This document shows, in pieces, positions 2,019 to 20,443 of a DNA stretch of 64,000 nt. The DNA is from an uncultured Planctomycetota bacterium (GTDB taxonomy: Bacteria > Planctomycetota > Planctomycetia > Isosphaerales > Isosphaeraceae). The stretch is taken from contig CAWJTV010000047.1 in NCBI GenBank assembly GCA_963845755.1, forward strand, positions 1 through 64,000. Reading direction: 5' to 3'. Position 1 is the stretch's first letter; the number at the start of each line of letters is the position of its first letter. The notes under the pieces are model-generated. The model ran no database searches. It was not told the DNA's origin and saw only the letters and a list, made by a program, of their open reading frames with translations. The position numbers and the translations under genes are program-made.

Positions 2019-3796
2019 TACTATGTCCGGAGCGACCGGGCAGAAAAACGGTGAGCCGCTGACGGTAAGCTCCTCAGAAGAGGTCTTTCACCAAATCCCT
2101 CTCAACCACGGAGTCTCACCATGTCAGCGACCCACGACCTTCATCCTATCACCACCGGCTCGAACACGCTCTACCTCGCGTTCGAACTCGGCTGGACCTC
2201 CTGGAACCTCGCCTTCACCACCGCCATGGCCCGGAAGCCGCGGCTCCGCACCATCCCCGCTCGCGATCTCGATGCCCTTCAGCGCGAGATCCTCTGCGCA
2301 AGGCACCGCTTCGCCCTCCCCGACGACGCCTCTGTTCTCTCCTGCTACGAGGCCGGCCGCGACGGCTTCTGGCTCCATCGCGATCTCCAACACCACGCCA
2401 TCACCAACTGCGTCGTCAACGCCGCCCGCATCGAGGTCAATCGCCGCGCCCGCCGCGCCAAGAGCGATCGGCTCGACGTCGGCAAGCTCTTGACCATGTT
2501 GATCCGTTATCACGGCGGCGAGCACAAGCTCTGGAGCATCGTCCGCATCCCCACCCCCGACGATGAGGACCGCCGTCAGCCCCACCGCGAGCTGATCGCT
2601 GTCAAGGGCCAGCGCACCGAGCACTCCCATCGCATCAAGGGACTCCTCGCCAATCTCGGCCTTGACGTTGTGGTCGATGACCCGTTGCCGGAACGCCTCG
2701 GCCAGCTTCGCCAGTGGGACGGGAGGCCGGTCCCGGCCGAGCTGAGTGCCCGCATCGTCCGCGAGTGCGACCGCTGGACCTGGTCGACCGCCAGGCGCCG
2801 ACCTGGAGAACGCCCAGCGGCGAGCGTTCCGCGACGACGCGACGGCCGACGTCGAGACGCTGCGGCTGCTGCTGAACCTCAAGGCGATCGGTCCGATGAG
2901 CGCGACGCGGTTCGTCCGCGAGTTCTTCGGCTGGCGGCAGATCCAGAACCGCCGCGAGCTGGCGAGCCTCGCCGGTTTGGCCCCGACGCCGTACGCCAGT
3001 GGCGACAGTCAGCGCGAGCAAGGGATCAGCAAGGCGGGCAATCGCCGTCTGCGGTGGATGGCGGTGGAGATCGCCTGGGGCTGGCTGCACTGGCAGCCCC
3101 ACAGCGCCTTGAGCCAGTGGTATCAGCGTCGGTTCGGCGAGGGCAACGCGCGGCGCGCAAGGTGGGGATTGTGGCCCTGGCCCGCAAGTTATTGATTGCG
3201 CTGTGGCGATACCTGGAACAGGGCGAGGTGCCCGAGGGGGCGGAATTCACGCCGTGGGAGAAGAAGCTCAACGGCCGACTGCCTGCATCAGCAAAGGTCG
3301 AATGACCACTGAATTTGTTCATGTAATAACATTATTACTAAAATGAAACCAGGGGCCTTGAGGGAAGAATCACGAGCGTACCGGGCTGGAGGGGGCGACC
3401 GGGCGAGCACGTCTGGTTGGCGGCAGCCGACCGTTTGTTAGATGGGTTTGTCCCACACCTGGCTTCGGAGTCGTCCGCGGACGAACAGAGTAACGGGTGC
3501 TCGGTCCCTTAAGTGAGGATCGACACGGAGAGAAGGTGGTCGCGGCCTCCTGGCAGGCGCAACGCGCGTGACGAAGCCACCAGCCGCCGTCTCGGGAGTT
3601 CGTCGGCAAGGGCAAGGAGTGTGCCGATCGCAGGACCACCGACGTTGTCTGGAGAACGAGAAACAGCGTGTGTCCTGGCTCCCCGCAAACGGGGAGCCAG
3701 GACACACGCTGTCGGACTCGGAGCGATCGCTGTCCGCGCCCCGCGGGACGCCCAGAAAAAATCAGTCGGGGGGCTTGACTTCAGCGGGTTCATAGA
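2019..3796 (+). mobile_element. IS110-family element, copy 1, inserted in attC
   Basis: Near-identical to 4798-6579; AGA at both junctions; about 490 bp non-coding right end. Confidence 0.9.
2121..3305 (+). CDS. IS110-family (DEDD) transposase, frameshifted
   Basis: LAFELG, CYEAGRDGFWLHR, AKSDRLD, GLAPTPYASG, GISKAGN, ALARKL motifs; indels near 2780-2800 and 3160. Confidence 0.9.
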   Translation: MSATHDLHPITTGSNTLYLAFELGWTSWNLAFTTAMARKPRLRTIPARDLDALQREILCARHRFALPDDASVLSCYEAGRDGFWLHRDLQHHAITNCVVNAARIEVNRRARRAKSDRLDVGKLLTMLIRYHGGEHKLWSIVRIPTPDDEDRRQPHRELIAVKGQRTEHSHRIKGLLANLGLDVVVDDPLPERLGQLRQWDGRPVPAELSARIVRECDRWTWSTARRRPGERPAASVPRRRDGRRRDAAAAAEPQGDRSDERDAVRPRVLRLAADPEPPRAGEPRRFGPDAVRQWRQSARARDQQGGQSPSAVDGGGDRLGLAALAAPQRLEPVVSASVRRGQRAARKVGIVALARKLLIALWRYLEQGEVPEGAEFTPWEKKLNGRLPASAKVE

Positions 3797-4038
3797 AGAA
3801 CCCTTCCGCCCACCCGCCGGGTACAACACCCGCACTGGGTTGACAAGGACATGGCGAGACCTCGGCGACACACGGATCGCGGCCATGGCGCCATCACCGT
3901 CAACTCGGGAGACAGCATCCAAGACTCGGGGAAGGGCCAGAAGCGACGACGCTTCGCCGAAGCGTTCGCCGGACACCACGGCCAATTCGATTCGGCCGCC
4001 TTTCGCCCAGCATACTCGATCGCCTGTTCGGGGCTCAT
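3797..4038 (-). CDS. Cassette hypothetical protein (MSPEQAIEYAG...), frameshifted
   Basis: ATG at 4038; runs toward the R'' of attC3, which the IS has displaced. Confidence 0.35.
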
Positions 4039-4079: not shown

Positions 4080-4464
4080 TTACCACAACAACCGGACTGG
4101 ATACTGGACGAATAGACGATCCCGCCGAGATCAATTCCGCCCCCTCCACGATGGCTTGGGCTATCAACAACCGATCGAACGGGTCCTTATGGATGGGCGG
4201 TAGCCCCTCGAGCGCCAGCGAGTGCGGCGATGTCACGGGCAGGACCTGAAGACCGTTCGCCTGCTGCTGGGCGACGATATCGGGCAAGGGAACGCGCACA
4301 CTCAACTTGCCGAGCTGGGCCTTGATCAGGATCTCCCAGACGCTGACGACGCTCAGCCACACAGAGTTGGCGGGGTCGCGGAGAGCCGCCAACGCCACGG
4401 CCGAGAGCTGTGCCGGGTTGCTATCCCACCAGATAAAGGTATGGGTGTCGAGTAGCAGCCTCAT
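4080..4464 (-). CDS. vapC: PIN-domain (VapC-like) toxin
   Basis: MRLLLDTHTFIWW...HKDPFDRLLIAQA; true C-terminus DRLFVQYPVRLLW* (stop at 4080) after a frameshift. Confidence 0.85.
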
Positions 4465-4691
4465 GGCTGACCGATCCAGAAGTCATCCGGCAACGGCACG
4501 TCGAAGTCCGGGGCCGCCTGGATCGCACCGGCGTGGAGTCCCGCAACGCGCGGGCTTGCTCCTCCGCACGGGACAATCCGTGCGCGCGGAGTCGCGCCGT
4601 CAGTCAGGATCACTTCGCCGCCCGAAGCCGCCACCGCCAGTGCCTCCTCAAGTCGAGCCGGCAACTCCCGGATGTCGATGGTCGTAATCAT
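4461..4691 (-). CDS. Antitoxin (Phd/YefM-like with a DFDxPLPDDF tail)
   Basis: 76 aa, overlaps the toxin start; TATAAT -10 box at 4715-4720 upstream. Confidence 0.8.
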   Translation of the reverse strand: MITTIDIRELPARLEEALAVAASGGEVILTDGATPRARIVPCGGASPRVAGLHAGAIQAAPDFDVPLPDDFWIGQP

Positions 4692-4797: not shown

Positions 4798-6579
4798 TAC
4801 TATGTCCGGAGCGACCGGGCTGAAAACGGTGAGCCGCCGACGGTAAGCTCCTCAGAAGAGGTCTTTCGCCAAATCCCTCTCAACCTCGGAGTCTTACCAT
4901 GTCAGCGACCCACGACCTTCATCCTACCACCACCGGCTCGAACACGCTCTACCTCGCCTTCGACCTCGGCTGGACGTCCTGGAACCTCGCCTTCACCACC
5001 GCCATGGCCCAGAAGCCGCGGCTCCGCACTATCCCCGCTCGCGATCTCGAAGGTCTCCAGCGCGAGATCCTCCTCGCAAGGCACCGCTTCGCCCTCCCCG
5101 ACGACGCCTCTGTTCTCTCCTGCTACGAGGCCGGCCGCGACGGCTTCTGGCTCCATCGCGATCTCCAACACCACGCCATCACCAACTGCGTCGTCGACGC
5201 CGCCAGCATCGAGGTCAATCGCCGCGCTCGCTGCGCCAAGAGCGATCGGCTCGACGTCGGCAAGCTCTTGACCATGTTGATCCGTTATCACGGCGGCGAG
5301 CACAAGCTCTGGAGCGTCGTCCGCATCCCCACCCCCGACGATGAGGACCGCCGCCAGCCCCACCGCGAGCTGATCGCCGTCAAGGGCCAGCGCACCGAGC
5401 ACTCCAATCGCATCAAGGGACTCCTCGCCAATCTCGGCCTTGACGTCGTGGTCGATGACCAGTTGCCGGAACGTCTCGGCCAACTTCGCCAATGGGACGG
5501 GAGGCCGGTCCCGGCCGAGCTGAGTGCCCGCATCCTCCGCGAGTTCGACCGCTGGACACTGGTGGACCGCCAGGCGCGCGACCTGGAGAACGCCCAGCGG
5601 CGAGCGTTCCGCGACGACGCGACGGCTGACGTCGAGAAGCTGCGGCTGCTGCTGAACCTCAAGGCGATCGGTCCGATGAGCGCGACGCTGTTCGTCCGCG
5701 AGTTCTTCGGCTGGCGGCAGATCCAGAACCGCCGCGAGCTGGCGAGCCTCGCCGGTTTGGCCCCGACGCCGTACGCCAGCGGCGACAGTCAGCGCGAGCA
5801 AGGGATCAGCAAGGCGGGCAATCGCCGTCTGCGGTGGATGGCGGTGGAGATCGCCTGGGGCTGGCTGCACTGGCAGCCCAATAGCGCCTTGAGCCAGTGG
5901 TATCAGCGTCGGTTCGGCGAGGGCAACGCGCGGGCGCGGAAGATGGGGATTGTGGCCCTGGCCCGCAAGTTGTTGATCGCGCTGTGGCGATACCTGGAGA
6001 CAGGGCGAGGTGCCCGAGGGGGCGGAATTCACGCCGTGGGAGAAGAAGCTCAACGGCCGACTGCCTGCATCAGCAAAGGTCGGATGATCACTAAATTTGT
6101 TCATGTAATAACATTATTACTAACATGAAACCGGGGGCCTTGAGGGAAGAATCACGAGCGTACCGGGCTGGAGGGGGCGACCGGGCGAGCACGCTGGTCG
6201 GCGGCAGCCGACCGTGAGTTAGATGGGTTTGTCCCCACACCTGGCTTCGGAGTCGTCCGCGGACGAACAGAGTAACGGGTGCTCGGTCCCTTGAAGTGAG
6301 GATCGACACGGAGAGAAGGTGGTCGCGGACTCCTGGCAGGCGCGACGTGCGTGACGAAGCCACCAGCCGCCGTCTCGGGAGTTCGTCGGCAAGGGCAAGG
6401 AGTGTGCCGATCGCAGGACCACCGACGTTGTCTGGAGAACGAGAAACAGCGTGTGTCCTGGCTCCCCGCAAACGGGGAGCCAGGACACACGCTGTCGGAC
6501 TCGGAGCGATCGCTGTCCGCGCCCCGCAGGGCGCCCAGAAAAAATTAGTCGGGGGCCTTGACCTCAGCGTCTTCATAGA
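4798..6579 (+). mobile_element. IS110-family element, copy 2, inserted in attC
   Basis: Ends AGA|TACTATG ... TTCATAGA|; homologous to copy 1. Confidence 0.9.
4899..6087 (+). CDS. IS110-family transposase
   Basis: Same motifs as copy 1; single indel near 6000. Confidence 0.9.
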
Positions 6580-6644
6580 AGGCAGTAGCGGTACCCCGGG
6601 GGCCGGATGTAGAACGGCTCGTGCATCTGGCGCCCCCTCCTTCG

Positions 6645-9056
6645 GTCGGGTAAGGAGGTGAGGTTGCCCTCACCCCCTCCCCTCAGAACCGTACGTGCGC
6701 CTTGCGACGCATACGGCTCAAGCCTTCTCGAACGCCCCTCGCGGGACACAGCCCAGTCCGCCAGCCTTCCTCTTGCCGTGGATCTGCCGATGGCAGTGGG
6801 CGTGCAACAACTCCAAGTTGTCGTACGTCTCACCGCCGCCTCGATTGCGCCAGATCCGATGATGAATGTGCCAGGGTTCGTCTTCGGCCTGAAGAGGCTG
6901 CCCGCACATCACACATCGACCCCCTTGTCCCTTCCAGAGATACTCGATCCGGCCTCGACCTGCCAGGGTGTGCGTCAGCTTCCAGGCCGACCTCTCCTCC
7001 AGGTAGAGCTCCCACTCCGGATCGTAGGGGTTGGCCGCACTCCGGATCTTCCTCCACCGCAGGACCTTGACCCCGGCCGCTTTCATCAGCCGGATCCGTC
7101 CGCCGAGCCCGTGCTGTCACGGATTGTGCCCGTGAAGACCCAGTCTCGGTGGCCCTCGCGCTGGAAGTATTTCCTCTTGATCCACTTCCAGTTCTTCTCG
7201 GGATGGCGTCGGCGACACCATCTCATCAGCTTCCGGAAGATCCGATCGTCCACCGCATGGAAGATGCGCTTGCTGACCGCATAACGGTGGTACATGGTCC
7301 AGCCCTTGATCTGTTGATTCAAGCGCCGGATTAAGTCGCCCGCCGTCTTGCCGCCCGAGTCGTCGATCGTCGCCTGGATCTTGGCCAGGAACGTCTTGAT
7401 GCTCCGCTTCGATGGCTTGATCAAGACCTTGCCATTAGGGAAGCGTCGCACCGCCTGTCCCAGGAAATCGAAGCCGTCCTCAAGATGGGTGATCCTGGTC
7501 TTCTCGTGGGAGAGTTCGAGACCCCGCTTTCGTAAGAAGTGTTCCACGAGGGGCTGGACTTCACCTCGCAGGAGGACCCTTGATGTGCCGGTAATGATGA
7601 AGTCATCCGCATATCGGACCAGATGGACCTTGCCTCCCGCACGCCGTCGGCGTGTGTTGCTGAAGCGCCGCTCCAGCAACTCTTGCAACCCATCCAGGGC
7701 CCGGTTCGCCAGCGCGGGGGAGACGATCCCCCCTTGAGGTGTGCCTTCCGTGGTGGCGAACAGGACGTGCTTCTCCAGGAACCCGGCCTTCAGCCACTTC
7801 CGGAGCACCTCCTTGTCCATGGGGATATGGTCGATCAACCAACGATGGCTGATCCGATCAAAGCAGGCTTTGATATCCCCCTCCAAGATCCAGCTCGGAC
7901 CGGGCGGACCCCTGAGGATCTTGTGACACTCATCCAGGGCATCGGCACAGCAGCGTTCCAGTCGAAAGCCGTAGGAATGGCCGTCGGCGAGGGACTCTGC
8001 GATGGGATCGAGGCCCAGCAGGTAGAGGGCCTGCATGGCTCGATCGGCCATGGTAGGAATCCCTAAACCACGTCGCTGGCCGTTGCTCTTGGGAATGTAA
8101 ACCCTGCGGAGCGGTTGCGGCCGATAGCCGTGCCGACGCAGGGTGCTGAAGGCCGCCGACTTGACCTCCGGCGTGTTCCAGAGGATTCCGTCCACGCCGG
8201 GGGTCCGCGCACCCGAATTACTGACGACTCGCAAGATGGCCAGAGCCCGGCCACTGTACGAGTGGGTGAGCAGGTAGACCAGGGCTTTGGCTTTGTTCCA
8301 CCTGCCCTCCCGGACTGCCTTTACGATACGCGCCTGGAGCCGACGGACCGTGCGCCAGACTTTCTTCCAGGAAATGGAATTCCAGTCGGGCGCATGGCCG
8401 GGGACCGCACCAACAGGCGTTGCCGCCTGTGCCTTATCTGCTTTGCCCCCTGAGTCAGTTGGCCGAGGTTCTCTCGTAACGGAAGACCCGGGGGAAGTCG
8501 GCTCCCTTTCGGGCGGGGTGATGTCGCCTGTCGGCTCAACCCCTATCCGACCGGTTAGTGGCCGGCGTTCGCTTCCTCCCTCGTCCTGTACCCGCCGCCC
8601 CATGGGCTCCTCTTGCGAGTCGCCTACCCTCGCGGGGAGGACGACGGGCTTACCACGTTCCGACGATGTGCCAAGGTGGGGAGGGTCGCCGCTCTTCGCC
8701 GGTGGTACGGCATCTGCGCCAGGGGAGTTAGGAGCCCCCGGACCTGACCACGTGCCCTTTTGGCCCAAGCGTGACAGCATCTTCCGCTTGTTCTCAGTAA
8801 CGACGTTTATCGCGGCTTCACTTTACGTTGACCCGTCCACCCGATCCTGGTCCCCGACCGCGTTGATGCTGGCAGTCGCGGCGTCGGCTCGCGCTCCGGC
8901 CGCCCTCCCGAGGGAGGAGGATACGTTGTGCCGGGGGCTTGGCACCCCTCCGTTGCCGGAGGCGCACTCCCCGGTGGGATACTGCTGGCAGAACAGCAGG
9001 TGCTGTCGCCCTCTCCGAGGTCGCAGCACAGTCACATCGGCGACTTCGTGTCGCAC
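6645..9056 (-). mobile_element. Group II intron copy A
   Basis: 5' end GTGCG, 3' end ...CCTTACCCGAC; domain V GAGCCGTATGCG-GCAA-CGTACGGTTC; RT ORF. Confidence 0.95.
6718..8435 (-). CDS. ltrA: Group II intron RT/maturase with C-terminal HNH endonuclease (frameshift near 7100)
   Basis: NSGARTPGVDG, RGLGIPT, EGDIKACFD, GTPQGG, YADD, CxxC...HIHH...N...H..CH; start uncertain. Confidence 0.9.
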
Positions 9057-9989: not shown

Positions 9990-10175
9990 TCATGGGGGCG
10001 GGATTTGGAGGTCGCGGCAGATCTTCCGAGCCAGGTACTCGTAGATCTCGGTGTGCCGAGGGACGGCCGATGTCGCGTTCGTGGCCGGGTTCACGTAAAT
10101 GCTGTGCTTGCCGCCCTCGCGGAGCAGCCGGCAGCCATGTGCCTGCAGGTGCCTGATGAGGTCGTGGCGCTTCAT
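9990..10175 (-). CDS. hicA: HicA-family toxin
   Basis: REGGKHSIY...VPRHTEI...ICRDL. Confidence 0.9.
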   Translation of the reverse strand: MKRHDLIRHLQAHGCRLLREGGKHSIYVNPATNATSAVPRHTEIYEYLARKICRDLQIPPP

Positions 10176-10390
10176 ACCATCAGCTCGAACGGCTCGCGGG
10201 TCACGGCTTGACCCCGCAGCGACTCCTCGGCGAGTTCACGATTGCTCTCGATGACCAGAGTGACGGCCTCGCGGAGGTTCTCTCGGGCCTCCTCGAGCGT
10301 CGCACCCTGAGTATTGGCCCCGGGCAGCTCCTCGACGAAGGCGACGTAGCCTCCTTCCGGCACCTGGACGAAGACGGCGGTCAATTGCAT
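10172..10390 (-). CDS. hicB: HicB-family antitoxin
   Basis: YVAFVEELPGANTQGATLEEARENLREA; promoter-like TTGTCA-17-CATGAT at 10473-10445. Confidence 0.9.
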   Translation of the reverse strand: MQLTAVFVQVPEGGYVAFVEELPGANTQGATLEEARENLREAVTLVIESNRELAEESLRGQAVTREPFELMV

Positions 10391-10483
10391 TCGGCCCTCC
10401 CGGCCTCGCATGGCGTTGGTTCGGCTGCAGCGAGACCTGCTACCATCATGTCCTCACCGCGCGACGATGACAACAGCGTGGCG

Positions 10484-12898
10484 GTCGGGTAAGGAGGTGA
10501 GGTTGCCCTCACCCCCTCCCCTCAGAACCGTACGTGCGCCTTGCGACGCATACGGCTCAAGCCTTCTCGAACGCCCCTCGCGGGACACAGCCCAGTCCGC
10601 CAGCCTTCCTCTTGCCGTGGATCTGCCGATGGCAGTGGGCGTGCAACAACTCCAAGTTGTCGTACGTCTCACCGCCGCCTCGATTGCGCCAGATCCGATG
10701 ATGAATGTGCCAGGGTTCGTCTTCGGCCTGAAGAGGCTGCCCGCACATCACACATCGACCCCCTTGTCCCTTCCAGAGATACTCGATCCGGCCTCGACCT
10801 GCCAGGGTGTGCGTCAGCTTCCAGGCCGACCTCTCCTCCAGGTAGAGTTCCCACTCCGGATCGTAGGGGTTGGCCGCACTCCGGATCTTCCTCCACCGCA
10901 GGACCTTGACCCCGGCCGCTTTCATCAGCCGGATCGGTCGCGCCGAGCCCGTGCTGTCACGGATTGTGCCCGTGAAGACCCAGTCTCGGTGGCCCTCGCG
11001 CTGGAAGTATTTCCTCTTGATCCACTTCCAGTTCTTCTCGGGATGGCGTCGGCGACACCATCTCATCAGCTTCCGGAAGATCCGATCGTCCACCGCATGG
11101 AAGATGCGCTTACTGACCGCATAACGGTGGTACATGGTCCAGCCCTTGATCTGTTGATTCAAGCGCCGGATCAAGTCGCCCGCCGTCTTGCCGCCCGAGT
11201 CGTCGATCGTCGCCTGGATCTTGGCCAGGAACGTCTTGATGCTCCGCTTCGATGGCTTGATCAAGACCTTGCCATTAGCGGAAGCGTCGCACCGTCTGTC
11301 CCAGGAAATCGAAGCCGTCCTCGAGATGCGTGATCCTGGTCTTCTCGTGGGAGAGTTCGAGACCCCGCTTTCGTAAGAAGTGTTCCACGAGGGGCTGGAC
11401 TTCACCTCGCAGGAGGACCCTTGATGTGCCGGTAATGATGAAGTCATCCGCATATCGGACCAGATGGACCTTGCCTCCCGCACGCCGTCGGCGTGTGTTG
11501 CTGAAGCGCCGCTCCAGCAACTCTTGCAACCCATCCAGGGCCCGGTTCGCCAGCGCGGGGGAGACGATCCCCCCTTGAGGTGTGCCTTCCGTGGTGGCGA
11601 ACAGGACGTGCTTCTCCAGGAACCCGGCCTTCAGCCACTTCCGGAGCACCTCCTTGTCCATGGGGATATGGTCGAGCAACCAACGATGGCTGATCCGATC
11701 AAAGCAGGCTTTGATATCCCCCTCCAAGATCCAGCTCGGACCGGGCGGACCCCTGAGGATCTTGTGACACTCATCCAGGGCATCGGCACAGCAGCGTTCC
11801 AGTCGAAAGCCGTAGGAATGGCCGTCGGCGAGGGTCTCCGCGATGGGATCGAGGCCCAGCAGGTAGAGGGCCTGCATGGCTCGATCGGCCATGGTGGGAA
11901 TCCCTAAACCACGTCGCTGGCCGTTGCTCTTGGGAATGTAAACCCTGCGGAGCGGTTGCGGCCGATAGCCGTGCCGACGCAGGGTGCTGAAGGCCGCCGA
12001 CTTGACCTCCGGCGTGTTCCAGAGGATTCCGTCCACGCCGGGGGTCTGCGCACCCGAATTACTGACGACTCGCAAGATGGCCAGAGCCCGGCCACTGTAC
12101 GAGTGGGTGAGCAGGTAGACCAGGGCTTTGACTTTGTTCCACCTGCCCTCCCGGACTGCCTTCACGATACGCGCCTGGAGCCGACGGACCGTGCGATAGA
12201 CCTTCTTCCAGTAGATGGAATTCCAGTCGGGCGCATGGCCGGGGAGCCGCACCAGCAGGCGTTGCCGCCTGTGACATATCTGCTTTGCCCCCTGAGTCAG
12301 TTGGCCAAGGTTCTCTCGTGACGGAAGACCCGGGGGAAGTCGGCTCCCTTTCGGGCGGGGTGATGTCGCCTGTCGGCTCAACCCCTATCCGACCGGTTAG
12401 TGGCCGGCGTTCGCTTCCTCCCTCGTCCTGTACCCGCCGCCCCATGGGCTCCTCTTGCGAGTCGCCTACCCTCGCGGGGAGGACGACGGGCTTACCACGT
12501 TCCGACGATGTGCCAAGGTGGGGAGGGTCGCCGCTCTTCGCCGGTGGTACGGCATCTGCGCCGGGGGAGTTAGGAGCCCCCGGACCTGACCACGTGCCCT
12601 TTTGGCCCAAGCGTGACAGCATCTTCCGCTTGTTCTCAGTAACGACGTTTATCGCGGCTTCACTTTACGTTGACCCGTCCACCCGATCCTGGTCCCCGAC
12701 CGCGTTGATGCTGGCAGTCGCGGCGTCGGCTCGCGCCTCGGCCGCCCTCCCGAGGGAGGAGGATACGTTGTGCCGGGGGCTTGGCACCCCTCCGTTGCCG
12801 GAGGCGCACTTCCCGGTGGGATACTGCTGGCAGAACAGCAGGTGCTGTCGCCCTCTCCGAGGTCGCAGCACAGTCACATCGGCGACTTCGTGTCGCAC
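10484..12898 (-). mobile_element. Group II intron copy B (slightly diverged)
   Basis: Same ends and RNA domains as copy A. Confidence 0.95.
10557..12277 (-). CDS. ltrA: Group II intron RT/maturase/HNH, copy B (frameshifts near 12245 and 11280)
   Basis: ATG at 12277; RT and HNH motifs. Confidence 0.88.
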
Positions 12899-12958
12899 CC
12901 TAACGCCCAAGATCAGCGGCCCGCCGACAGGCGGGTCCGCTGCATCGCCTCGTTAGAC
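12899..12958 (-). other. attC site 6 (intron B in R')
   Basis: GTCTAAC...GTTAGG|intron|C. Confidence 0.9.
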
Positions 12959-12968
12959 CGCCCTTGCC

Positions 12969-13154
12969 TCACGGGTCGGGGACACCGAGCTGACGGCAGA
13001 TGGCCCGGGCGGTCGGGTTGGCGATCTCACGGTGCCGGGGCACGGCCGACCGCCGGCCATTCGCCGGGTTCTCCCAGATGGAGTGGTCCGACCCTTCCCG
13101 GGCCAGCACGCAGCCGTGGGATCGCAGGTGTCGGATCAGGTCCCGCCGGCTCAC
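12969..13154 (-). CDS. hicA: HicA-family toxin
   Basis: REGSDHSIW...VPRHREI...ICRQLG. Confidence 0.9.
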   Translation of the reverse strand: MSRRDLIRHLRSHGCVLAREGSDHSIWENPANGRRSAVPRHREIANPTARAICRQLGVPDP

Positions 13155-13438
13155 GGCACGACCACCCCGGCCGGCCGCACTTCGACGCCCGTGCTCGCCC
13201 GCAGGTGCAGGTGGATCGGCTCCTCAACGTCCGCGTCCGGGTCGGAGAGCGACGGGTCGGGGCGGGGCAGCGGCTCCCCGCGCTCAAGGGCCAACGCCGC
13301 CATGTCGAGCAGGGCGGAGGCGAGCAACCGCCGGGCCTCGGCCAAGTCCGAACCGCAGGTGATCGCCCCCGGGAAGTCCAGGACGTGGGCATGTACCCCG
13401 CCCTCGACGAACTGGTAGGCCGCCTTGTACGTGAGCAT
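13151..13438 (-). CDS. hicB: HicB-family antitoxin
   Basis: MLTYKAAY...DFPGAITCGSDLAEA; promoter-like TTGCTG-17-TAGCAT at 13501-13473. Confidence 0.85.
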   Translation of the reverse strand: MLTYKAAYQFVEGGVHAHVLDFPGAITCGSDLAEARRLLASALLDMAALALERGEPLPRPDPSLSDPDADVEEPIHLHLRASTGVEVRPAGVVVP

Positions 13439-14502
13439 CGGGATGGCCTCGGCCTGACGGAACCACTCCCCTATGCTACACAGTCCGCGGCAGTGCAGCA
13501 ACTCGTCGATCGGCTTCCGGGCTTCCGGCTCACTGCTCGCTGGGTCGGGTAAGGAGGTGAGGTTGCCCTCACCCCCTCCCCTCAGAACCGTACGTGCGCC
13601 TTGCGACGCATACGGCTCAAGCCTTCTCGAACGCCCCTCGCGGGACACAGCCCAGTCCGCCAGCCTTCCTCTTGCCGTGGATCTGCCGATGGCAGTGGGC
13701 GTGCAACAACTCCAAGTTGTCGTACGTCTCACCGCCGCCTCGATTGCGCCAGATCCGATGATGAATGTGCCAGGGTTCGTCTTCGGCCTGAAGAGGCTGC
13801 CCGCACATCACACATCGACCCCCTTGTCCCTTCCAGAGATACTCGATCCGGCCTCGACCTGCCAGGGTGTGCGTCAGCTTCCAGGCCGACCTCTCCTCCA
13901 GGTAGAGCTCCCACTCCGGATCGTAGGGGTTGGTCGCACTCCGGATCTTCCTCCACCGCAGGACCTTGACCCCGGCCGCTTTCATCAGCCGGATCCGTCG
14001 CGCCGAGCCCGTGCTGTCACGGATTGTGCCCGTGAAGACCCAGTCTCGGTGGCCCTCGCGCTGGAAGTATTTCCTCTTGATCCACTTCCAGTTCTTCTCG
14101 GGATGGCGTCGGCGACACCATCTCATCAGCTTCCGGAAGATCCGATCGTCCACCGCATGGAAGATGCGCTTACTGACCGCATAACGGTGGTACATGGTCC
14201 AGCCCTTGATCTGTTGATTCAAGCGCCGGATTAAGTCGCCCGCCGTCTTGCCGCCCGAGTCGTCGATCGTCGCCTGGATCTTGGCCAGGAACGTCTTGAT
14301 GCTCCGCTTCGATGGCTTGATCAAGACCTTGCCATTAGGGAAGCGTCGCACCGCCTGTCCCAGGAAATCGAAGCCGTCCTCAAGATGGGTGATCCTGGTC
14401 TTCTCGTGGGAGAGTTCGAGACCCCGCTTTCGTAAGAAGTGTTCCACGAGGGGCTGGACTTCACCTCGCAGGAGGACCCTTGATGTGCCGGTAATGATGA
14501 AG

Positions 14503-16265
14503 TCATCCGCATATCGGACCAGATGGACCTTGCCTCCCGCACGCCGTCGGCGTGTGTTGCTCAAAGCGCCGCTCCAGCAACTCTTGCAACCCATCCAGGG
14601 CCCGGTTCGCCAGCGCGGGGAGATCACGCCCCCAACAATGTTGCAAAGAACCCTGTTGGGGGCCTCCCTCAAAAGGGGACGGACTGATCCGATACACGAT
14701 GCGGACCTCCTGCTCGTCGATCTCGACCTTCTTCACCAAAGCCCGAACGATCGCCCGTCGCGTGGCCCAGTCCGGCTCTTGCAACTCGTGGGAAACGCGT
14801 CTCGCGAACTCCTCCAACTGGCCGATCACCAGCCGCAGTTCGGCTTCCTGGTTGGCCTCGTCAATCTGCTGCCGACACTCATCCTCCAGTTTGGCCAGGC
14901 GCTGCGCGCTGCCAAGATCCTCGGCTCGAACTCCGACTTGTTAAGTAATCCCTCGCCGTAGGCATCGATCAATCGAGCGATCATCTTTTTTAGATTCGCA
15001 ATCAATTTGTTGAGATGCTTCACCTCGCGGTCTGGGCCTGTCTCCGGCCCGTGCAGCCGCCGTTCGTACTCCACTCGAACCCGTTCGGGCTCGGACAAGA
15101 GATGACGCACATCTTCCCAGACGGCGGCGTCCAAGACATCCGTGCGGACCTGCTTGTTCCAACACAGTCGCTGGCCACCGAAACGATAGGCGTCGGAGCC
15201 GGTGCAGCGGTAGTAGGCGTAGGGGACCTTCCCCTTGGCCGAGGCCCGGCTCACCGGCTTGCCGTAGCAGCCGTAGCCGCACCGTTTGCAGACAACTAAC
15301 CCCTGGAGGAGATAGCGGTCGCCACGGAGCCGTTCGCGCCGGCGTTGCCGGTTCTCCTCGATTTGAGCTTGAACCATCCCGAAGAGTTCCTCGCTCACCA
15401 AACCGGGGACATCGATGAAGATTTGTTCTTGCGTGGATGTATCGACCCGAGAGACAGGACGCCGGGGCTGCTCAGGACGGCCGCGTTGCGGCGCAGCCGC
15501 TTCGGCTTGAGGGCGCCCGCCGCGTCTTGCCGAAACCGGCCGTCCCCTTGTAGGCAGGGTTCCTGAGATACGACCAGATCACCGAGCGGTCCCAGGCCGA
15601 TTTGCCCGTCCGCGTGGGGACGCCGTCGCGTTGCAGACGTCGGCAAACCTCACCGATCGAGCATCGTTCCTGGCCGACCCACCCGAAGATCTTCCGCACG
15701 ATCCGCGCCTCGTCGGCCACGACCTGATAACGCGCCGCGCCGCCGCCCTCATGCTTGCCGATGTAGCGGTAGCCATACGGCGCACCGCTGAGCACGTTGA
15801 CCGAGCCGTGGCGGGCGGCGTACTGCTTGCCTCGGCGACACCGCTCCATGATCTTGGCACGCTCGTATTCAGCGATCATGCCCTGGACCTGCACAAGCAG
15901 GTTCTCTTCGGGTCCGTGACCCGGGGATTGCGCAGGAAGACGACCTCAACGCCGCACCGGGCCAGTTCCTCGAGTATCAAAACCTGGTAGGCATATTTGC
16001 GCGAAAGTCGATCGGGATCGAGAATGTAGAGGCGATCGATGGTCCCAGCAGCGGCCTGGTCCCGAAGTCGTTCGAGGCCCGGGCGGACCAGGGTATCCCC
16101 GGTGTAGCCATCGTCCACAAAGCACAGCTCGGGGGAGCATACCAAGCCGTCGCTCGCGACGCGCTGCCTGATCGCCTCAAGCTGGCTGGCGATCGTGTCC
16201 TCCTTGGACTGTTGGTCCCCGGAGACCCGGCCATAGGTCCCCACACAGAGATCGTGATTGAGCAT
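14503..16265 (-). CDS. Large serine recombinase (resolvase + recombinase + Zn ribbon + coiled coil), frameshifted
   Basis: YGRVSG, DDGYTG, RPGL, DRLSR, AEYER, APYGY, LRNPAYKG, YLLQGLVVCKRCG, YYRC; four ORF pieces. Confidence 0.88.
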
Positions 16266-16640
16266 GGCTGGTCAAGCTCCTCTGGCCTTTGATCGGAGTC
16301 CCTGCATCGTTGTGGTGGCCTGCTCGTTGTCGTGAGATCGCGATCGCGACCGTTCCAGGTGGCGAGAAACGACCGGGATCAAGGCCTGGTATGCCGGCGC
16401 GATCACCTCATCCTGAAACCGGGTGAACTCGAAATGGCGGGTGACGGGAGGGCTCAGGGCTGACCTCCGTTGAGATGTAATCATGTTGACTCATCCTCTC
16501 CAAGACCGCGGCTGTCAGCCTGCCTTGGACGGGGATCGAGCCCGGGCTGCCATCCTTGCCCATACTTCGGTCGGAGCCGCGATCTGGAAATGACAGAGTC
16601 AGGGATCAGGGACAGTTTTGCAACATTGTTGGGGGCGTGA
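14624..16640 (-). mobile_element. Minimal large-serine-recombinase element, 2017 bp, with perfect 24-bp terminal inverted repeats
   Basis: TCACGCCCCCAACAATGTTGCAAA at 14624-14647 and its reverse complement at 16617-16640; flanks rejoin to the RT sequence seen in the other intron copies. Confidence 0.9.
16272..16484 (-). CDS. Small hypothetical protein upstream of the recombinase
   Basis: 70-aa ORF with GAGGA upstream, ending 7 bp before the recombinase ATG. Confidence 0.5.
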   Translation of the reverse strand: MITSQRRSALSPPVTRHFEFTRFQDEVIAPAYQALIPVVSRHLERSRSRSHDNEQATTTMQGLRSKARGA

Positions 16641-17973
16641 CGATCCCCCCTTGAGGTGTGCCTTCCGTGGTGGCGAACAGGACGTGCTTCTCCAGGAACC
16701 CGGCCTTCAGCCACTTCCGGAGCACCTCCTTGTCCATGGGGATATGGTCGATCAACCAACGATGGCTGATCCGATCAAAGCAGGCTTTGATATCCCCCTC
16801 CAAGATCCAGCTCGGACCGGGCGGACCCCTGAGGATCTTGTGACACTCATCCAGGGCATCGGCACAGCAGCGTTCCAGTCGAAAGCCGTAGGAATGGCCG
16901 TCGGCGAGGGACTCTGCGATGGGATCGAGGCCCAGCAGGTAGAGGGCCTGCATGGCTCGATCGGCCATGGTAGGAATCCCTAAACCACGTCGCTGGCCGT
17001 TGCTCTTGGGAATGTAAACCCTGCGGAGCGGTTGCGGCCGATAGCCGTGCCGACGCAGGGTGCTGAAGGCCGCCGACTTGACCTCCGGCGTGTTCCAGAG
17101 GATTCCGTCCACGCCGGGGGTCCTGCGCACCCGAATTACTGACGACTCGCAAGATGGCCAGAGCCCGGCCACTGTACGAGTGGGTGAGCAGGTAGACCAG
17201 GGCTTTGGCTTTGTTCCACCTGCCCTCCCGGACTGCCTTTACGATACGCGCCTGGAGCCGACGGACCGTGCGCCAGACTTTCTTCCAGGAAATGGAATTC
17301 CAGTCGGGCGCGTGGCCGGGGACCGCACCAACAGGCGTTGCCGCCTGTGCCTTATCTGCTTTGCCCCCTGAGTCAGTTGGCCGAGGTTCTCTCGTAACGG
17401 AAGACCCGGGGGAAGTCGGCTCCCTTTCGGGCGGGGTGATGTCGCCTGTCGGCTCAACCCCTATCCGACCGGTTAGTGGCCGGCGTTCGCTTCCTCCCTC
17501 GTCCTGTACCCGCCGCCCCATGGGCTCCTCTTGCGAGTCGCCTACCCTCGCGGGGAGGACGACGGGCTTACCACGTTCCGCCGATGTGCCAAGTGGGGAG
17601 GGTCGCCGCTCTTCGCCGGTGGTACGGCATCTGCGCCGGGGGAGTTAGGAGCCCCCGGACCTGACCACGTGCCCTTTTGGCCCAAGCGTGACAGCATCTT
17701 CCGCTTGTTCTCAGTAACGACGTTTATCGCGGCTTCACTTTACGTTGACCCGTCCACCCGATCCTGGTCCCCGACCGCGTTGATGCTGGCAGTCGCGGCG
17801 TCGGCTCGCGCTCCGGCCGCCCTCCCGAGGGAGGAGGATACGTTGTGCCGGGGGCTTGGCACCCCTCCGTTGCCGGAGGCGCACTCCCCGGTGGGATACT
17901 GCTGGCAGAACAGCAGGTGCTGTCGCCCTCTCCGAGGTCGCAGCACAGTCACATCGGCGACTTCGTGTCGCAC

Positions 17974-20386
17974 GTCGGGTAAGGAGGTGAGGTTGCCCTC
18001 ACCCCCTCCCCTCAGAACCGTACGTGCGCCTTGCGACGCATACGGCTCAAGCCTTCTCGAACGCCCCTCGCGGGACACAGCCCAGTCCGCCAGCCTTCCT
18101 CTTGCCGTGGATCTGCCGATGGCAGTGGGCGTGCAACAACTCCAAGTTGTCGTACGTCTCACCGCCGCCTCGATTGCGCCAGATCCGATGATGAATGTGC
18201 CAGGGTTCGTCTTCGGCCTGAAGAGGCTGCCCGCACATCACACATCGACCCCCTTGTCCCTTCCAGAGATACTCGATCCGGCCTCGACCTGCCAGGGTGT
18301 GCGTCAGCTTCCAGGCCGACCTCTCCTCCAGGTAGAGCTCCCACTCCGGATCGTAGGGGTTGGCCGCACTCCGGATCTTCCTCCACCGCAGGACCTTGAC
18401 CCCGGCCGCTTTCATCAGCCGGATCCGTCGCGCCGAGCCCGTGCTGTCACGGATTGTGCCCGTGAAGACCCAGTCTCGGTGGCCCTCGCGCTGGAAGTAT
18501 TTCCTCTTGATCCACTTCCAGTTCTTCTCGGGATGGCGTCGGCGACACCATCTCATCAGCTTCCGGAAGATCCGATCGTCCACCGCATGGAAGATGCGCT
18601 TACTGACCGCATAACGGTGGTACATGGTCCAGCCCTTGATCTGTTGATTCAAGCGCCGGATTAAGTCGCCCGCCGTCTTGCCGCCCGAGTCGTCGATCGT
18701 CGCCTGGATCTTGGCCAGGAACGTCTTGATGCTCCGCTTCGATGGCTTGATCAAGACCTTGCCATTAGGGAAGCGTCGCACCGCCTGTCCCAGGAAATCG
18801 AAGCCGTCCTCAAGATGGGTGATCCTGGTCTTCTCGTGGGAGAGTTCGAGACCCCGCTTTCGTAAGAAGTGTTCCACGAGGGGCTGGACTTCACCTCGCA
18901 GGAGGACCCTTGATGTGCCGGTAATGATGAAGTCATCCGCATATCGGACCAGATGGACCTTGCCTCCCGCACGCCGTCGGCGTGTGTTGCTGAAGCGCCG
19001 CTCCAGCAACTCTTGCAACCCATCCAGGGCCCGGTTCGCCAGCGCGGGGGAGACGATCCCCCCTTGAGGTGTGCCTTCCGTGGTGGCGAACAGGACGTGC
19101 TTCTCCAGGAACCCGGCCTTCAGCCACTTCCGGAGCACCTCCTTGTCCATGGGGATATGGTCGATCAACCAACGATGGCTGATCCGATCAAAGCAGGCTT
19201 TGATATCCCCCTCCAAGATCCAGCTCGGACCGGGCGGACCCCTGAGGATCTTGTGACACTCATCCAGGGCATCGGCACAGCAGCGTTCCAGTCGAAAGCC
19301 GTAGGAATGGCCGTCGGCGAGGGACTCTGCGATGGGATCGAGGCCCAGCAGGTAGAGGGCCTGCATGGCTCGATCGGCCATGGTAGGAATCCCTAAACCA
19401 CGTCGCTGGCCGTTGCTCTTGGGAATGTAAACCCTGCGGAGCGGTTGCGGCCGATAGCCGTGCCGACGCAGGGTGCTGAAGGCCGCCGACTTGACCTCCG
19501 GCGTGTTCCAGAGGATTCCGTCCACGCCGGGGGTCCGCGCACCCGAATTACTGACGACTCGCAAGATGGCCAGAGCCCGGCCACTGTACGAGTGGGTGAG
19601 CAGGTAGACCAGGGCTTTGGCTTTGTTCCACCTGCCCTCCCGGACTGCCTTTACGATACGCGCCTGGAGCCGACGGACCGTGCGCCAGACTTTCTTCCAG
19701 GAAATGGAATTCCAGTCGGGCGCGTGGCCGGGGACCGCACCAACAGGCGTTGCCGCCTGTGCCTTATCTGCTTTGCCCCCTGAGTCAGTTGGCCGAGGTT
19801 CTCTCGTAACGGAAGACCCGGGGGAAGTCGGCTCCCTTTCGGGCGGGGTGATGTCGCCTGTCGGCTCAACCCCTATCCGACCGGTTAGTGGCCGGCGTTC
19901 GCTTCCTCCCTCGTCCTGTACCCGCCGCCCCATGGGCTCCTCTTGCGAGTCGCCTACCCTCGCGGGGAGGACGACGGGCTTACCACGTTCCGACGATGTG
20001 CCAAGGTGGGGAGGGTCGCCGCTCTTCGCCGGTGGTACGGCATCTGCGCCAGGGGAGTTAGGAGCCCCCGGACCTGACCACGTGCCCTTTTGGCCCAAGC
20101 GTGACAGCATCTTCCGCTTGTTCTCAGTAACGACGTTTATCGCGGCTTCACTTTACGTTGACCCGTCCACCCGATCCTGGTCCCCGACCGCGTTGATGCT
20201 GGCAGTCGCGGCGTCGGCTCGCGCTCCGGCCGCCCTCCCGAGGGAGGAGGATACGTTGTGCCGGGGGCTTGGCACCCCTCCGTTGCCGGAGGCGCACTCC
20301 CCGGTGGGATACTGCTGGCAGAACAGCAGGTGCTGTCGCCCTCTCCGAGGTCGCAGCACAGTCACATCGGCGACTTCGTGTCGCAC
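17974..20386 (-). mobile_element. Group II intron copy D (uninterrupted), abutting copy C
   Basis: Minus-strand junction ...TTACCCGAC|GTGCGACAC... with no intervening base. Confidence 0.95.
18047..19765 (-). CDS. ltrA: Group II intron RT/maturase/HNH, continuous reading frame
   Basis: Unbroken ORF (open upstream to 20110) with all RT motifs, thumb and HNH; start uncertain. Confidence 0.92.
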   Translation of the reverse strand, partial: KAQAATPVGAVPGHAPDWNSISWKKVWRTVRRLQARIVKAVREGRWNKAKALVYLLTHSYSGRALAILRVVSNSGARTPGVDGILWNTPEVKSAAFSTLRRHGYRPQPLRRVYIPKSNGQRRGLGIPTMADRAMQALYLLGLDPIAESLADGHSYGFRLERCCADALDECHKILRGPPGPSWILEGDIKACFDRISHRWLIDHIPMDKEVLRKWLKAGFLEKHVLFATTEGTPQGGIVSPALANRALDGLQELLERRFSNTRRRRAGGKVHLVRYADDFIITGTSRVLLRGEVQPLVEHFLRKRGLELSHEKTRITHLEDGFDFLGQAVRRFPNGKVLIKPSKRSIKTFLAKIQATIDDSGGKTAGDLIRRLNQQIKGWTMYHRYAVSKRIFHAVDDRIFRKLMRWCRRRHPEKNWKWIKRKYFQREGHRDWVFTGTIRDSTGSARRIRLMKAAGVKVLRWRKIRSAANPYDPEWELYLEERSAWKLTHTLAGRGRIEYLWKGQGGRCVMCGQPLQAEDEPWHIHHRIWRNRGGGETYDNLELLHAHCHRQIHGKRKAGGLGCVPRGAFEKA

Positions 20387-20443
20387 CCTAACGCCCAAAT
20401 TCAGCGGCCCGCGCAGCGGGTCCGCTGCAATGCCTCGTTAGGA
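20387..20443 (-). other. attC site 7 (tandem introns D+C in R')
   Basis: TCCTAAC...GTTAGG|intron D|intron C|C. Confidence 0.9.

What the first reader, a model, noticed from the sequence alone, without database searches (positions are those of the whole stretch)
17960..17990. Seamless head-to-tail tandem of two group II introns in one attC
Seen: the 3' end of intron D (...TTACCCGAC) joins the 5' end of intron C (GTGCGAC...) at 17974/17973 with no exon base between them. Inference: D retrohomed into the 5'-exon/intron junction of an already occupied site, since IBS1 is retained and the +1 base is G instead of C. Splicing of D would regenerate exon-intron C for a second splicing step. The intact newcomer sits beside the copy whose RT is disrupted and could supply its maturase in trans. 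Repeated homing could build intron stacks.
Basis: partly seen in the sequence, partly recalled or inferred. Interest (0 to 1): 0.8.

Follow-up and report, generated by a model that had tools for sequence, protein, structure and literature searches.

The report
Natural side-by-side group II introns
A self-splicing jumping intron appears to have re-inserted directly in front of an older copy of itself at an integron recombination site, an event already seen in the laboratory, but here without the base pair that was thought to be needed.

Summary
Observation confirmed. Intron D (20386-17974) ends CCCGAC and intron C (17973-13544) starts GTGCG, with no base between. Both are copies of a IIB, CL1-like RT-X-En intron that homes inside the R' box of attC sites (GTTAGG|C). 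C is split by a 2-kb serine-recombinase element. Best reading (0.6): D retrohomed into the retained 5'-exon/intron junction. Such tandems are published from lab assays (PMC4075523, PMC12584367), which explain them by EBS3 = C or U pairing with the intron's first G. Here EBS3 is G (column pairs with +1 in 14 of 14 controls), so the junction is a G·G mismatch, which blocked homing for RmInt1. Natural junctions recur: 41 of 53 GTDB loci examined are real, and 7 of 22 CL1-type junctions have a non-pairing EBS3. The reads laid neither confirm nor refute the junction. The 'intact newcomer supplies maturase' idea is doubtful: D has AAG where relatives have the ATG start. Verdict: new variant of a known kind.

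The parts
20387..20443 (-). attC site (R'' TCCTAAC 20443-20437 ... R' GTTAGG 20392-20387; the last R' base C is displaced to 13543). It forms the 5' exon: IBS1 20392-20387, IBS2 about 20399-20394
   Evidence: bottom strand still folds as a hairpin after insertion, z = -4.0
17974..20386 (-). Intron D, 2413 nt, group IIB (CL1-like), identical to copy C41:30349-27937
20057..20062 (-). EBS1 of D (CCTAAC) in the Id3 hairpin loop; delta = T20063; EBS2 about 20094-20089
   Evidence: 6/6 pairs with GTTAGG; loop covaries with the exon in relatives
20024..20024 (-). EBS3 of D = G (same base in C at 17611); pairs with +1 C, mismatched with the G of intron C
   Evidence: this column pairs with +1 in 14 of 14 control introns, next-best column 9 of 14
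18047..19765 (-). IEP reading frame of D: RVT_N, RVT_1 (YADD), GIIM, HNH; no frameshift, but AAG at the position of the start ATG (19765-19763)
17974..18050 (-). Domains V and VI of D
   Evidence: Rfam RF00029, 61.8 bits
17973..17974 (-). Head-to-tail junction CCCGAC|GTGCG, no exon base
13544..17973 (-). Intron C, 4430 nt: same intron, split in the RT PQGG codons
14624..16638 (-). Large-serine-recombinase element with terminal inverted repeats, inserted in intron C; its frameshifts are probably assembly errors
   Evidence: X1 contigs show one extra base at 14903, 15490, 15520, 15922
12899..13543 (-). 3' exon: rest of the cassette that carries the tandem, HicB-like (13438-13151) + HicA (13154-12969) and its attC (about 12957-12899)
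   Evidence: HicA above cut-off; UPF0150-like hit below cut-off
10484..12898 (-). Intron B: sister copy, 98.8% identical, the only copy with SD + ATG; two single-base insertions
6645..9056 (-). Intron A: sister copy in another attC

Best explanation
The intron recognises its DNA target almost wholly through the 5' exon: EBS1/EBS2 pair with the R' end of attC sites, and the 3' side is a different cassette at each site. Insertion therefore leaves IBS1/IBS2 intact and changes only the 3' side, to GTGCG. C inserted first and picked up the recombinase element before or after arriving. A second RNP of the current D/C41a type then reverse-spliced at the attC|C junction despite an EBS3(G)·IBS3(G) mismatch and was copied by target-primed reverse transcription. 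Shown: geometry, EBS1/EBS3 identities, sequence relationships. Inferred: order of events, retrohoming as the route, and splicing (removal of D restores exon|C exactly; one-step removal of D+C using C's D5/D6 and the proper +1 C is also possible). The tandem lies downstream of the G|TT crossover of attC, so it would travel with the hicBA cassette (inference from the known attC crossover point).
For: EBS1 pairs 6/6 with the attC exon and at most 1/6 with D's end. The seven 3' exons share only +1 C (7/7) and +2 G (6/7). D is identical to C41a; C has private changes and shares allele 336C with B and C3. The route is demonstrated for two IIB introns in the lab (PMC12584367; PMC4075523). Natural junctions between non-identical introns, which repeat collapse cannot make, include L003, L010/L023, L092, L104 (93.5%, EBS3 G) and L088 (91.8%, two ORF-less relatives of this lineage, upstream EBS3 A). 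With 15-35 well-matched attC sites and 8 insertions, 0.8-1.9 re-hits are expected if +1 were ignored; 1 is seen.
Against: For RmInt1 (also EBS3 G, IBS3 C) no mobility was detected into a +1G target (in a delta-delta' compensated mutant), and 88 of 88 selected targets were Watson-Crick at EBS3/IBS3. TeI3c homing also depends substantially on this pair (figure values not visible). No read spans the junction. The assembly has single-base indel errors, so the few D/C differences may partly be noise, and alleles 336/663 show all four combinations. D-type copies lack the usual start codon, so the source of RT is unclear. Junctions are rare elsewhere: 0 of 22 pattern-matching intron ends in 150 same-phylum genomes.
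Confidence: 0.6

Rival explanations
1. A circular DNA copy of the intron (cDNA of an intron circle, 3' end joined to 5' end) recombined with the resident copy by homology. This gives a head-to-tail pair with no need for EBS3 pairing.
For: It explains the G·G mismatch at no cost. Several short-read contigs elsewhere are single intron units that wrap end to start (L007, L093, L095), as circles or collapsed tandems would. Excision of group II introns as circles is known (recalled).
Against: The crossover would have to fall before position 336 of 2413 to leave C's alleles and the recombinase element in the downstream copy, if those alleles are real. It does not explain junctions between introns of low similarity such as L003 or L092.
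Confidence: 0.13
2. Double insertion in one event: the RT jumped end to end from one intron RNA to another during cDNA synthesis, or a composite D+C lariat spliced from a tandem elsewhere homed as one unit.
For: It needs only the downstream copy's correct +1 C. Template switching by group II RTs is known (recalled).
Against: D and C differ, and C carries a 2-kb insertion, which points to different ages or donors. No second tandem exists in the assembly to act as donor.
Confidence: 0.12
3. Assembly artefact: the junction is misplaced or created at a multi-copy repeat.
For: The genome is an 88%-complete, 49-contig assembly with indel errors. Seven near-identical copies exist. No spanning read was found.
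Against: The junction is base-perfect and unique. The repeat run to bridge (2386 nt) is no longer than at the single copies, which were resolved with distinct flanks. The recombinase element in C is inverted relative to the C3 copy, so C is not a misplaced C3. The same junction type occurs in at least 41 other loci.
Confidence: 0.1

Closest known systems
Tandem integration of the IIB1 intron EcKTE56.groEL (PMC12584367; parts 1 and 3 of 8 and passages read)
   Same: Same junction (CCGAC|GTGCG), second copy placed between 5' exon and first copy; 4.2% of WT and 22.4% of dORF insertions. A natural groEL-type tandem (L009, 3023 nt x2, EBS3 U) turned up.
   Different: Laboratory over-expression; explained by an EBS3(U)·G wobble. 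Here the tandem is natural, EBS3 is G, and the target is attC.
Tandem insertions of retargeted RmInt1 (PMC4075523; passages read)
   Same: Re-insertion at the occupied site in front of the first G of the resident intron.
   Different: Engineered EBS3 = C giving a Watson-Crick pair; En-minus intron. The same paper found only Watson-Crick EBS3/IBS3 in 88 selected targets.
UHB.I2, a IIB1/CL1 intron directly after an attC (PMC7923331; parts 1-3 of 7 read)
   Same: IIB1/CL1 intron in an integron array, next to attC, same orientation as the cassettes, TA cassettes nearby.
   Different: One En-minus copy with atypical ends and no EBS3 bulge; attC targeting not shown. Here EBS1 reads the R' box, 7 attC sites are occupied, the IEP has En, and a tandem exists.
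Group IIC-attC introns (as described in PMC7923331, PMC4424553)
   Same: Use attC sites as a repeated target.
   Different: Class C, bottom strand, opposite orientation, TTGT/T at R'', hairpin-guided; none of this holds here.
Bacterial/archaeal twintrons (T. elongatus TeI3/TeI4, Methanosarcina nested arrays; passages of PMC2882425, PMC4424553) and side-by-side group I introns of fungal mitochondria (passages of PMC8393795)
   Same: Several introns at one locus, giving a perpetual homing site; ratchet-type splicing was proposed for the group I tandems.
   Different: Twintrons are nested; here neither intron interrupts the other. The fungal tandems are group I.

Membership tests
Group IIB intron (CL1/IIB1) | GUGYG...AY ends and D5/D6 | tested here: met
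   GTGCG...CCCGAC; RF00029 and RF02012 above gathering score
Group IIB intron (CL1/IIB1) | EBS1, EBS2 and a separate EBS3 pairing with +1 | tested here: met
   EBS1 6/6, EBS2 5/6; EBS3 column 14 of 14
Group IIB intron (CL1/IIB1) | IEP with RT (YADD), X and En domains | tested here: met
   Pfam RVT_N, RVT_1, GIIM, HNH; TIGR04416 above cut-off
Group IIB intron (CL1/IIB1) | IEP falls in the CL1 clade | tested here: inconclusive
   No tree built. Best PDB match 6ME0, 603 bits versus 137 or less for the other six; that 6ME0 is a CL1 protein is recalled
Group IIB intron (CL1/IIB1) | Self-splicing and mobility of D | not testable with these tools
   No RNA data laid; start codon is AAG
Published tandem insertions (RmInt1, EcKTE56.groEL) | Seamless junction, incoming copy upstream, IBS1/IBS2 retained | tested here: met
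   order inferred
Published tandem insertions (RmInt1, EcKTE56.groEL) | EBS3 (C or U) can pair with the first G of the resident intron | tested here: not met
   EBS3 = G at 20024
IIC-attC introns | Insertion in the attC bottom strand, opposite to the cassettes, at TTGT/T | tested here: not met
   7 of 7 occupied sites are on the cassette strand at GTTAGR|C
Twintron | One intron nested inside another | tested here: not met
   D ends exactly where C starts
Integron cassette array | attC sites flanking cassettes | tested here: met
   100 profile hits, 68 extended to a full GTTRRN end; hairpin fold
Integron cassette array | Integron integrase | tested here: inconclusive
   None among the 43 tyrosine-recombinase matches lies on this contig, but the array runs to the contig end; a TIGR02249 integrase lies beside the C3 array

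The most novel reading that the evidence does not exclude
In natural IIB introns the single EBS3-IBS3 pair is a leaky form of 'homing immunity'. Lineages that read their target from the 5' exon alone, such as this attC-R' lineage, re-home into occupied sites even with purine·G mismatches, so occupied attC sites become growing intron stacks that ride on gene cassettes and shelter non-autonomous copies (start-less, ORF-less or recombinase-broken). Short-read assemblies collapse most of them, so they are undercounted.
Probability: 0.3. Interest if true: 0.65.

Novelty: new variant of a known kind. Interest (0 to 1): 0.45.

Why it matters
It shows that a by-product of targetron experiments happens in nature. 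It questions the published rule that tandem insertion needs EBS3 to pair with G, and it gives a simple test of how strong homing immunity of IIB introns is. It also strengthens the thin evidence that a non-class-C lineage targets attC sites, here by base pairing with the R' box on the cassette strand. Practical consequences: predicting unwanted multimer insertions of targetrons, and annotating intron loci that pipelines and short-read assemblers collapse. It is not a new kind of element and no host function is implied.

Tried and rejected
Read support: one search listed 20 runs, one holding half the words; four were laid. All are shallow contigs and no listed piece bridges 17974/17973, so this is neither for nor against. 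C homing behind D was rejected: EBS1 pairs at most 1/6 with D's end. Unequal crossover between separate copies, or cassette shuffling by IntI, was rejected by reasoning: both would carry exon sequence between the copies. The 7/7 C at +1 was dropped as evidence of EBS3 selection because 51 of 61 unoccupied attC sites also have C. SNPs gave only a weak order of events (four-gamete pattern at 336/663, indel noise). The promoter scan found 1 site versus 1.9 expected by chance: no information. Relatives: 10 of 61 genomes had a match to D's 5' part; of the 24 non-G000 loci fetched only L066 (ORF-less, same genus) sat in an attC. The search for the 3'-end-targeting intron in 121 genomes of one family found it only in the centre genome. 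Earlier-finding look-ups by place, words and sequence gave nothing. Dropped rows: L024 (duplicate of L023). In one search: L007 and L035 merged with L027, L097 with L019; L086, L089, L090, L094, L098 and L103 left out (upstream EBS3 not in the contig or not aligned); for L093 and L100 EBS3 was read from the downstream copy of a contig that wraps identically. Literature: nine searches found no report of natural head-to-tail group II tandems in bacterial genomes. The library lacks most subscription journals, older yeast and Podospora work on intron dimers is only recalled, and no supplements were read (those of PMC12584367 may bear on natural tandems). PMC8637638, PMC8919778, PMC13026550 and PMC13190283 (passages only) held nothing relevant.

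Full report
Setting. The window is the first 64 kb of contig C47 of an unnamed 14.27-Mb, 49-contig genome (88% complete). Positions 1-23000 hold an integron cassette array on the minus strand. A profile built from the window's attC sites gives 100 hits on several contigs, 68 extendable to a full R' end. An integron integrase (TIGR02249, 485 bits) lies beside the array on C3; no tyrosine-recombinase match lies on C47. The assembly has single-base indel errors: contigs of run X1 supply one extra base at four places in the recombinase gene.

The observation. Four copies of one group II intron lie in the window (A 9056-6645, B 12898-10484, C 17973-13544, D 20386-17974) and three more on C41 and C3. 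D's last base abuts C's first base: CCCGAC|GTGCG. The junction 40-mer is unique, and the longest repeated run to be bridged is 2386 nt, as at the single copies. The recombinase element in C is inverted relative to the one in the C3 copy, so C is not a misplaced C3. Reads do not decide the matter.

The intron. Its protein has RVT_N, RT, maturase and HNH domains and is far closer to PDB 6ME0 (603 bits) than to the six other matches, which fits CL1/IIB1 (label recalled; no tree built). All 7 occupied attC sites, including one holding an ORF-less 862-nt relative, have the intron at GTTAGR|C, inside R', on the cassette strand. This is not the IIC-attC pattern. EBS1 is CCTAAC in the Id3 loop and pairs 6/6 with GTTAGG; 6 of 7 occupied and 29 of 61 unoccupied sites match it perfectly. 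In relatives the loop changes with the exon, for example CATCGA with TCGATG and, in a same-genus genome, GCTCAC with GTTAGC. EBS3 was located by covariation: one alignment column pairs with the +1 base in 14 of 14 control introns (9 Watson-Crick, 5 wobble), the next best of 300 columns in 9. I first spotted this column by eye on an overlapping set, so the test is not fully independent. In D and C it is G. The 3' exons share only +1 C and mostly +2 G, and +1 C is simply the attC consensus (51 of 61 unoccupied sites).

How the tandem most likely formed. After C inserted, the 5' exon was unchanged and the new +1 was G. EBS1 cannot pair with D's 3' end, so if homing made the junction, D came second and landed in front. 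D is identical to C41a; C has private changes and the recombinase element, which agrees, although noise weakens this. With 15-35 well-matched sites and 8 insertions, 0.8-1.9 re-hits are expected if +1 is ignored. One observed case fits anything from no discrimination to a few per cent efficiency, and the finding was selected for being odd. Rivals that avoid the mismatch are recombination with a circular intron DNA (crossover confined to the first 335 nt), a double insertion in one event, and misassembly.

What is known. Tandem insertion is in print from two laboratory systems. For EcKTE56.groEL the authors call CCGACGTGCG diagnostic, report 4.2% and 22.4% tandems, and explain them by an EBS3(U)·G wobble (PMC12584367). 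For retargeted RmInt1, tandems were ascribed to EBS3(C) pairing with the first G, and all 88 selected targets were Watson-Crick at this pair (PMC4075523). For RmInt1 with EBS3 G, a +1G target gave no detectable mobility, while a +1A exon left splicing at 98% (PMC3123198). So D would probably splice, but by those rules should not have homed here. A CL1 intron directly after an attC in cassette orientation was reported once (PMC7923331). Nine searches found no description of natural bacterial tandems (listed under Tried and rejected).

How general. A pattern for domain V/VI followed directly by GTGYG found 54 loci in one genome each of 185,579 species. Of 53 examined, 41 loci (42 of 54 junctions) have an intron start downstream by Rfam or self-similarity. 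By my tally, 14 junctions join starts at least 99% alike and 28 do not. The 28 comprise 8 with a downstream ORF-less intron whose EBS1 (GTCGAG) is complementary to the upstream intron's end, 7 with a downstream D1D4-3-type intron (class C, recalled) behind domain VI, and 13 others. The first two groups probably arise by a different route, with the newcomer downstream. A CL1-biased scan of metagenomes gave 22 more loci. Among 22 CL1-type junctions with a readable EBS3, 9 have U, 6 C, 4 A and 3 G: 15 fit the published rule and 7 do not. The exceptions include non-identical pairs L104 (93.5%, G), L046 (94.6% over 129 nt, A) and L088 (91.8%, A), the last being two ORF-less relatives (85-90% to the C41 ORF-less copy) whose EBS1 loops resemble the R' box complement; its 5' exon is not in the contig. 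Many of these are short-read contigs in which a collapsed tandem and a circle look alike. Three units in a row occur at L023. Junctions are uncommon: 0 of 22 pattern-matching ends in 150 same-phylum genomes, 14 of them in one genome.

Maturase in trans. D's frame is open for 572 codons, but the codon at the start position is AAG in D, C, A, C41a, C41b and C3, whereas B and the 80%-identical family have ATG behind a Shine-Dalgarno-like run. An in-frame ATG at intron position 454 has only 3 nt after an SD-like run and lies in the ribozyme part. D may thus be non-autonomous, and C41a and C41b are just as uninterrupted. Precise excision of the recombinase element could in principle restore C's frame (inference; not tested).

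Verdict. The feature is very probably real and works like the published tandem insertions, but it fails their defining base pair. It is a new variant of a known kind: natural, at attC, and mismatched at EBS3. Interest 0.45.

Noticed in passing
L011, L015, L018, L020, L033, L034, L042, L050 (Bacteroidota genomes): A ~620-nt ORF-less group II intron whose EBS1 loop is GTCGAG, the exact complement of the last six bases of the intron in front of it (CTCGAC) and of its own end: an intron that appears to home to the 3' end of other introns. A partial copy (L148) sits behind CTACTCGAT. Not found in 120 further genomes of one family; searches showed no description. Possibly more novel than the finding itself.
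   Followed up: partly
L005, L016, L021, L025, L026, L039, L044: A D1D4-3-type (class C, recalled) intron sits directly behind domain VI of another intron; the D6 hairpin may act like a terminator or attC hairpin.
   Followed up: partly
L009: Natural tandem of a groEL stop-codon intron (3023 nt x2, EBS3 U), the wild counterpart of the experiment in PMC12584367.
   Followed up: partly
window 14624-16638; also G000 C3, C6, C16, C22, C24: Serine-recombinase element with terminal inverted repeats at the PQGG/PQGS codons of RT genes at six sites, in both orientations; already reported by earlier agents for other copies.
   Followed up: partly
window about 2020-3800 and 4800-6580: Two IS110-family elements next to the R'' end of attC sites, transposase opposite to the cassettes; resembles the IS1111-attC group (recalled).
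   Followed up: no
window 19765-19763 and sister copies: Six of seven copies have AAG instead of the start ATG yet spread recently; only copy B keeps ATG.
   Followed up: partly
G000:C41:16971-16110; L066; L088: ORF-less ~800-860-nt relatives with R'-like EBS1 loops; two are seen in attC sites (this genome and a same-genus genome).
   Followed up: partly
L003, L011, L015, L018, L020, L042, L050 flanks: The exons around these Bacteroidota pairs look like attC-type repeats (a GTT motif 6-8 nt into the 3' exon).
   Followed up: no
window 9990-10400, 12969-13438, 4080-4690: Several toxin-antitoxin-like cassettes in the array; two introns sit at the head of hicBA-like cassettes (only the 12969-13438 pair was scanned).
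   Followed up: no
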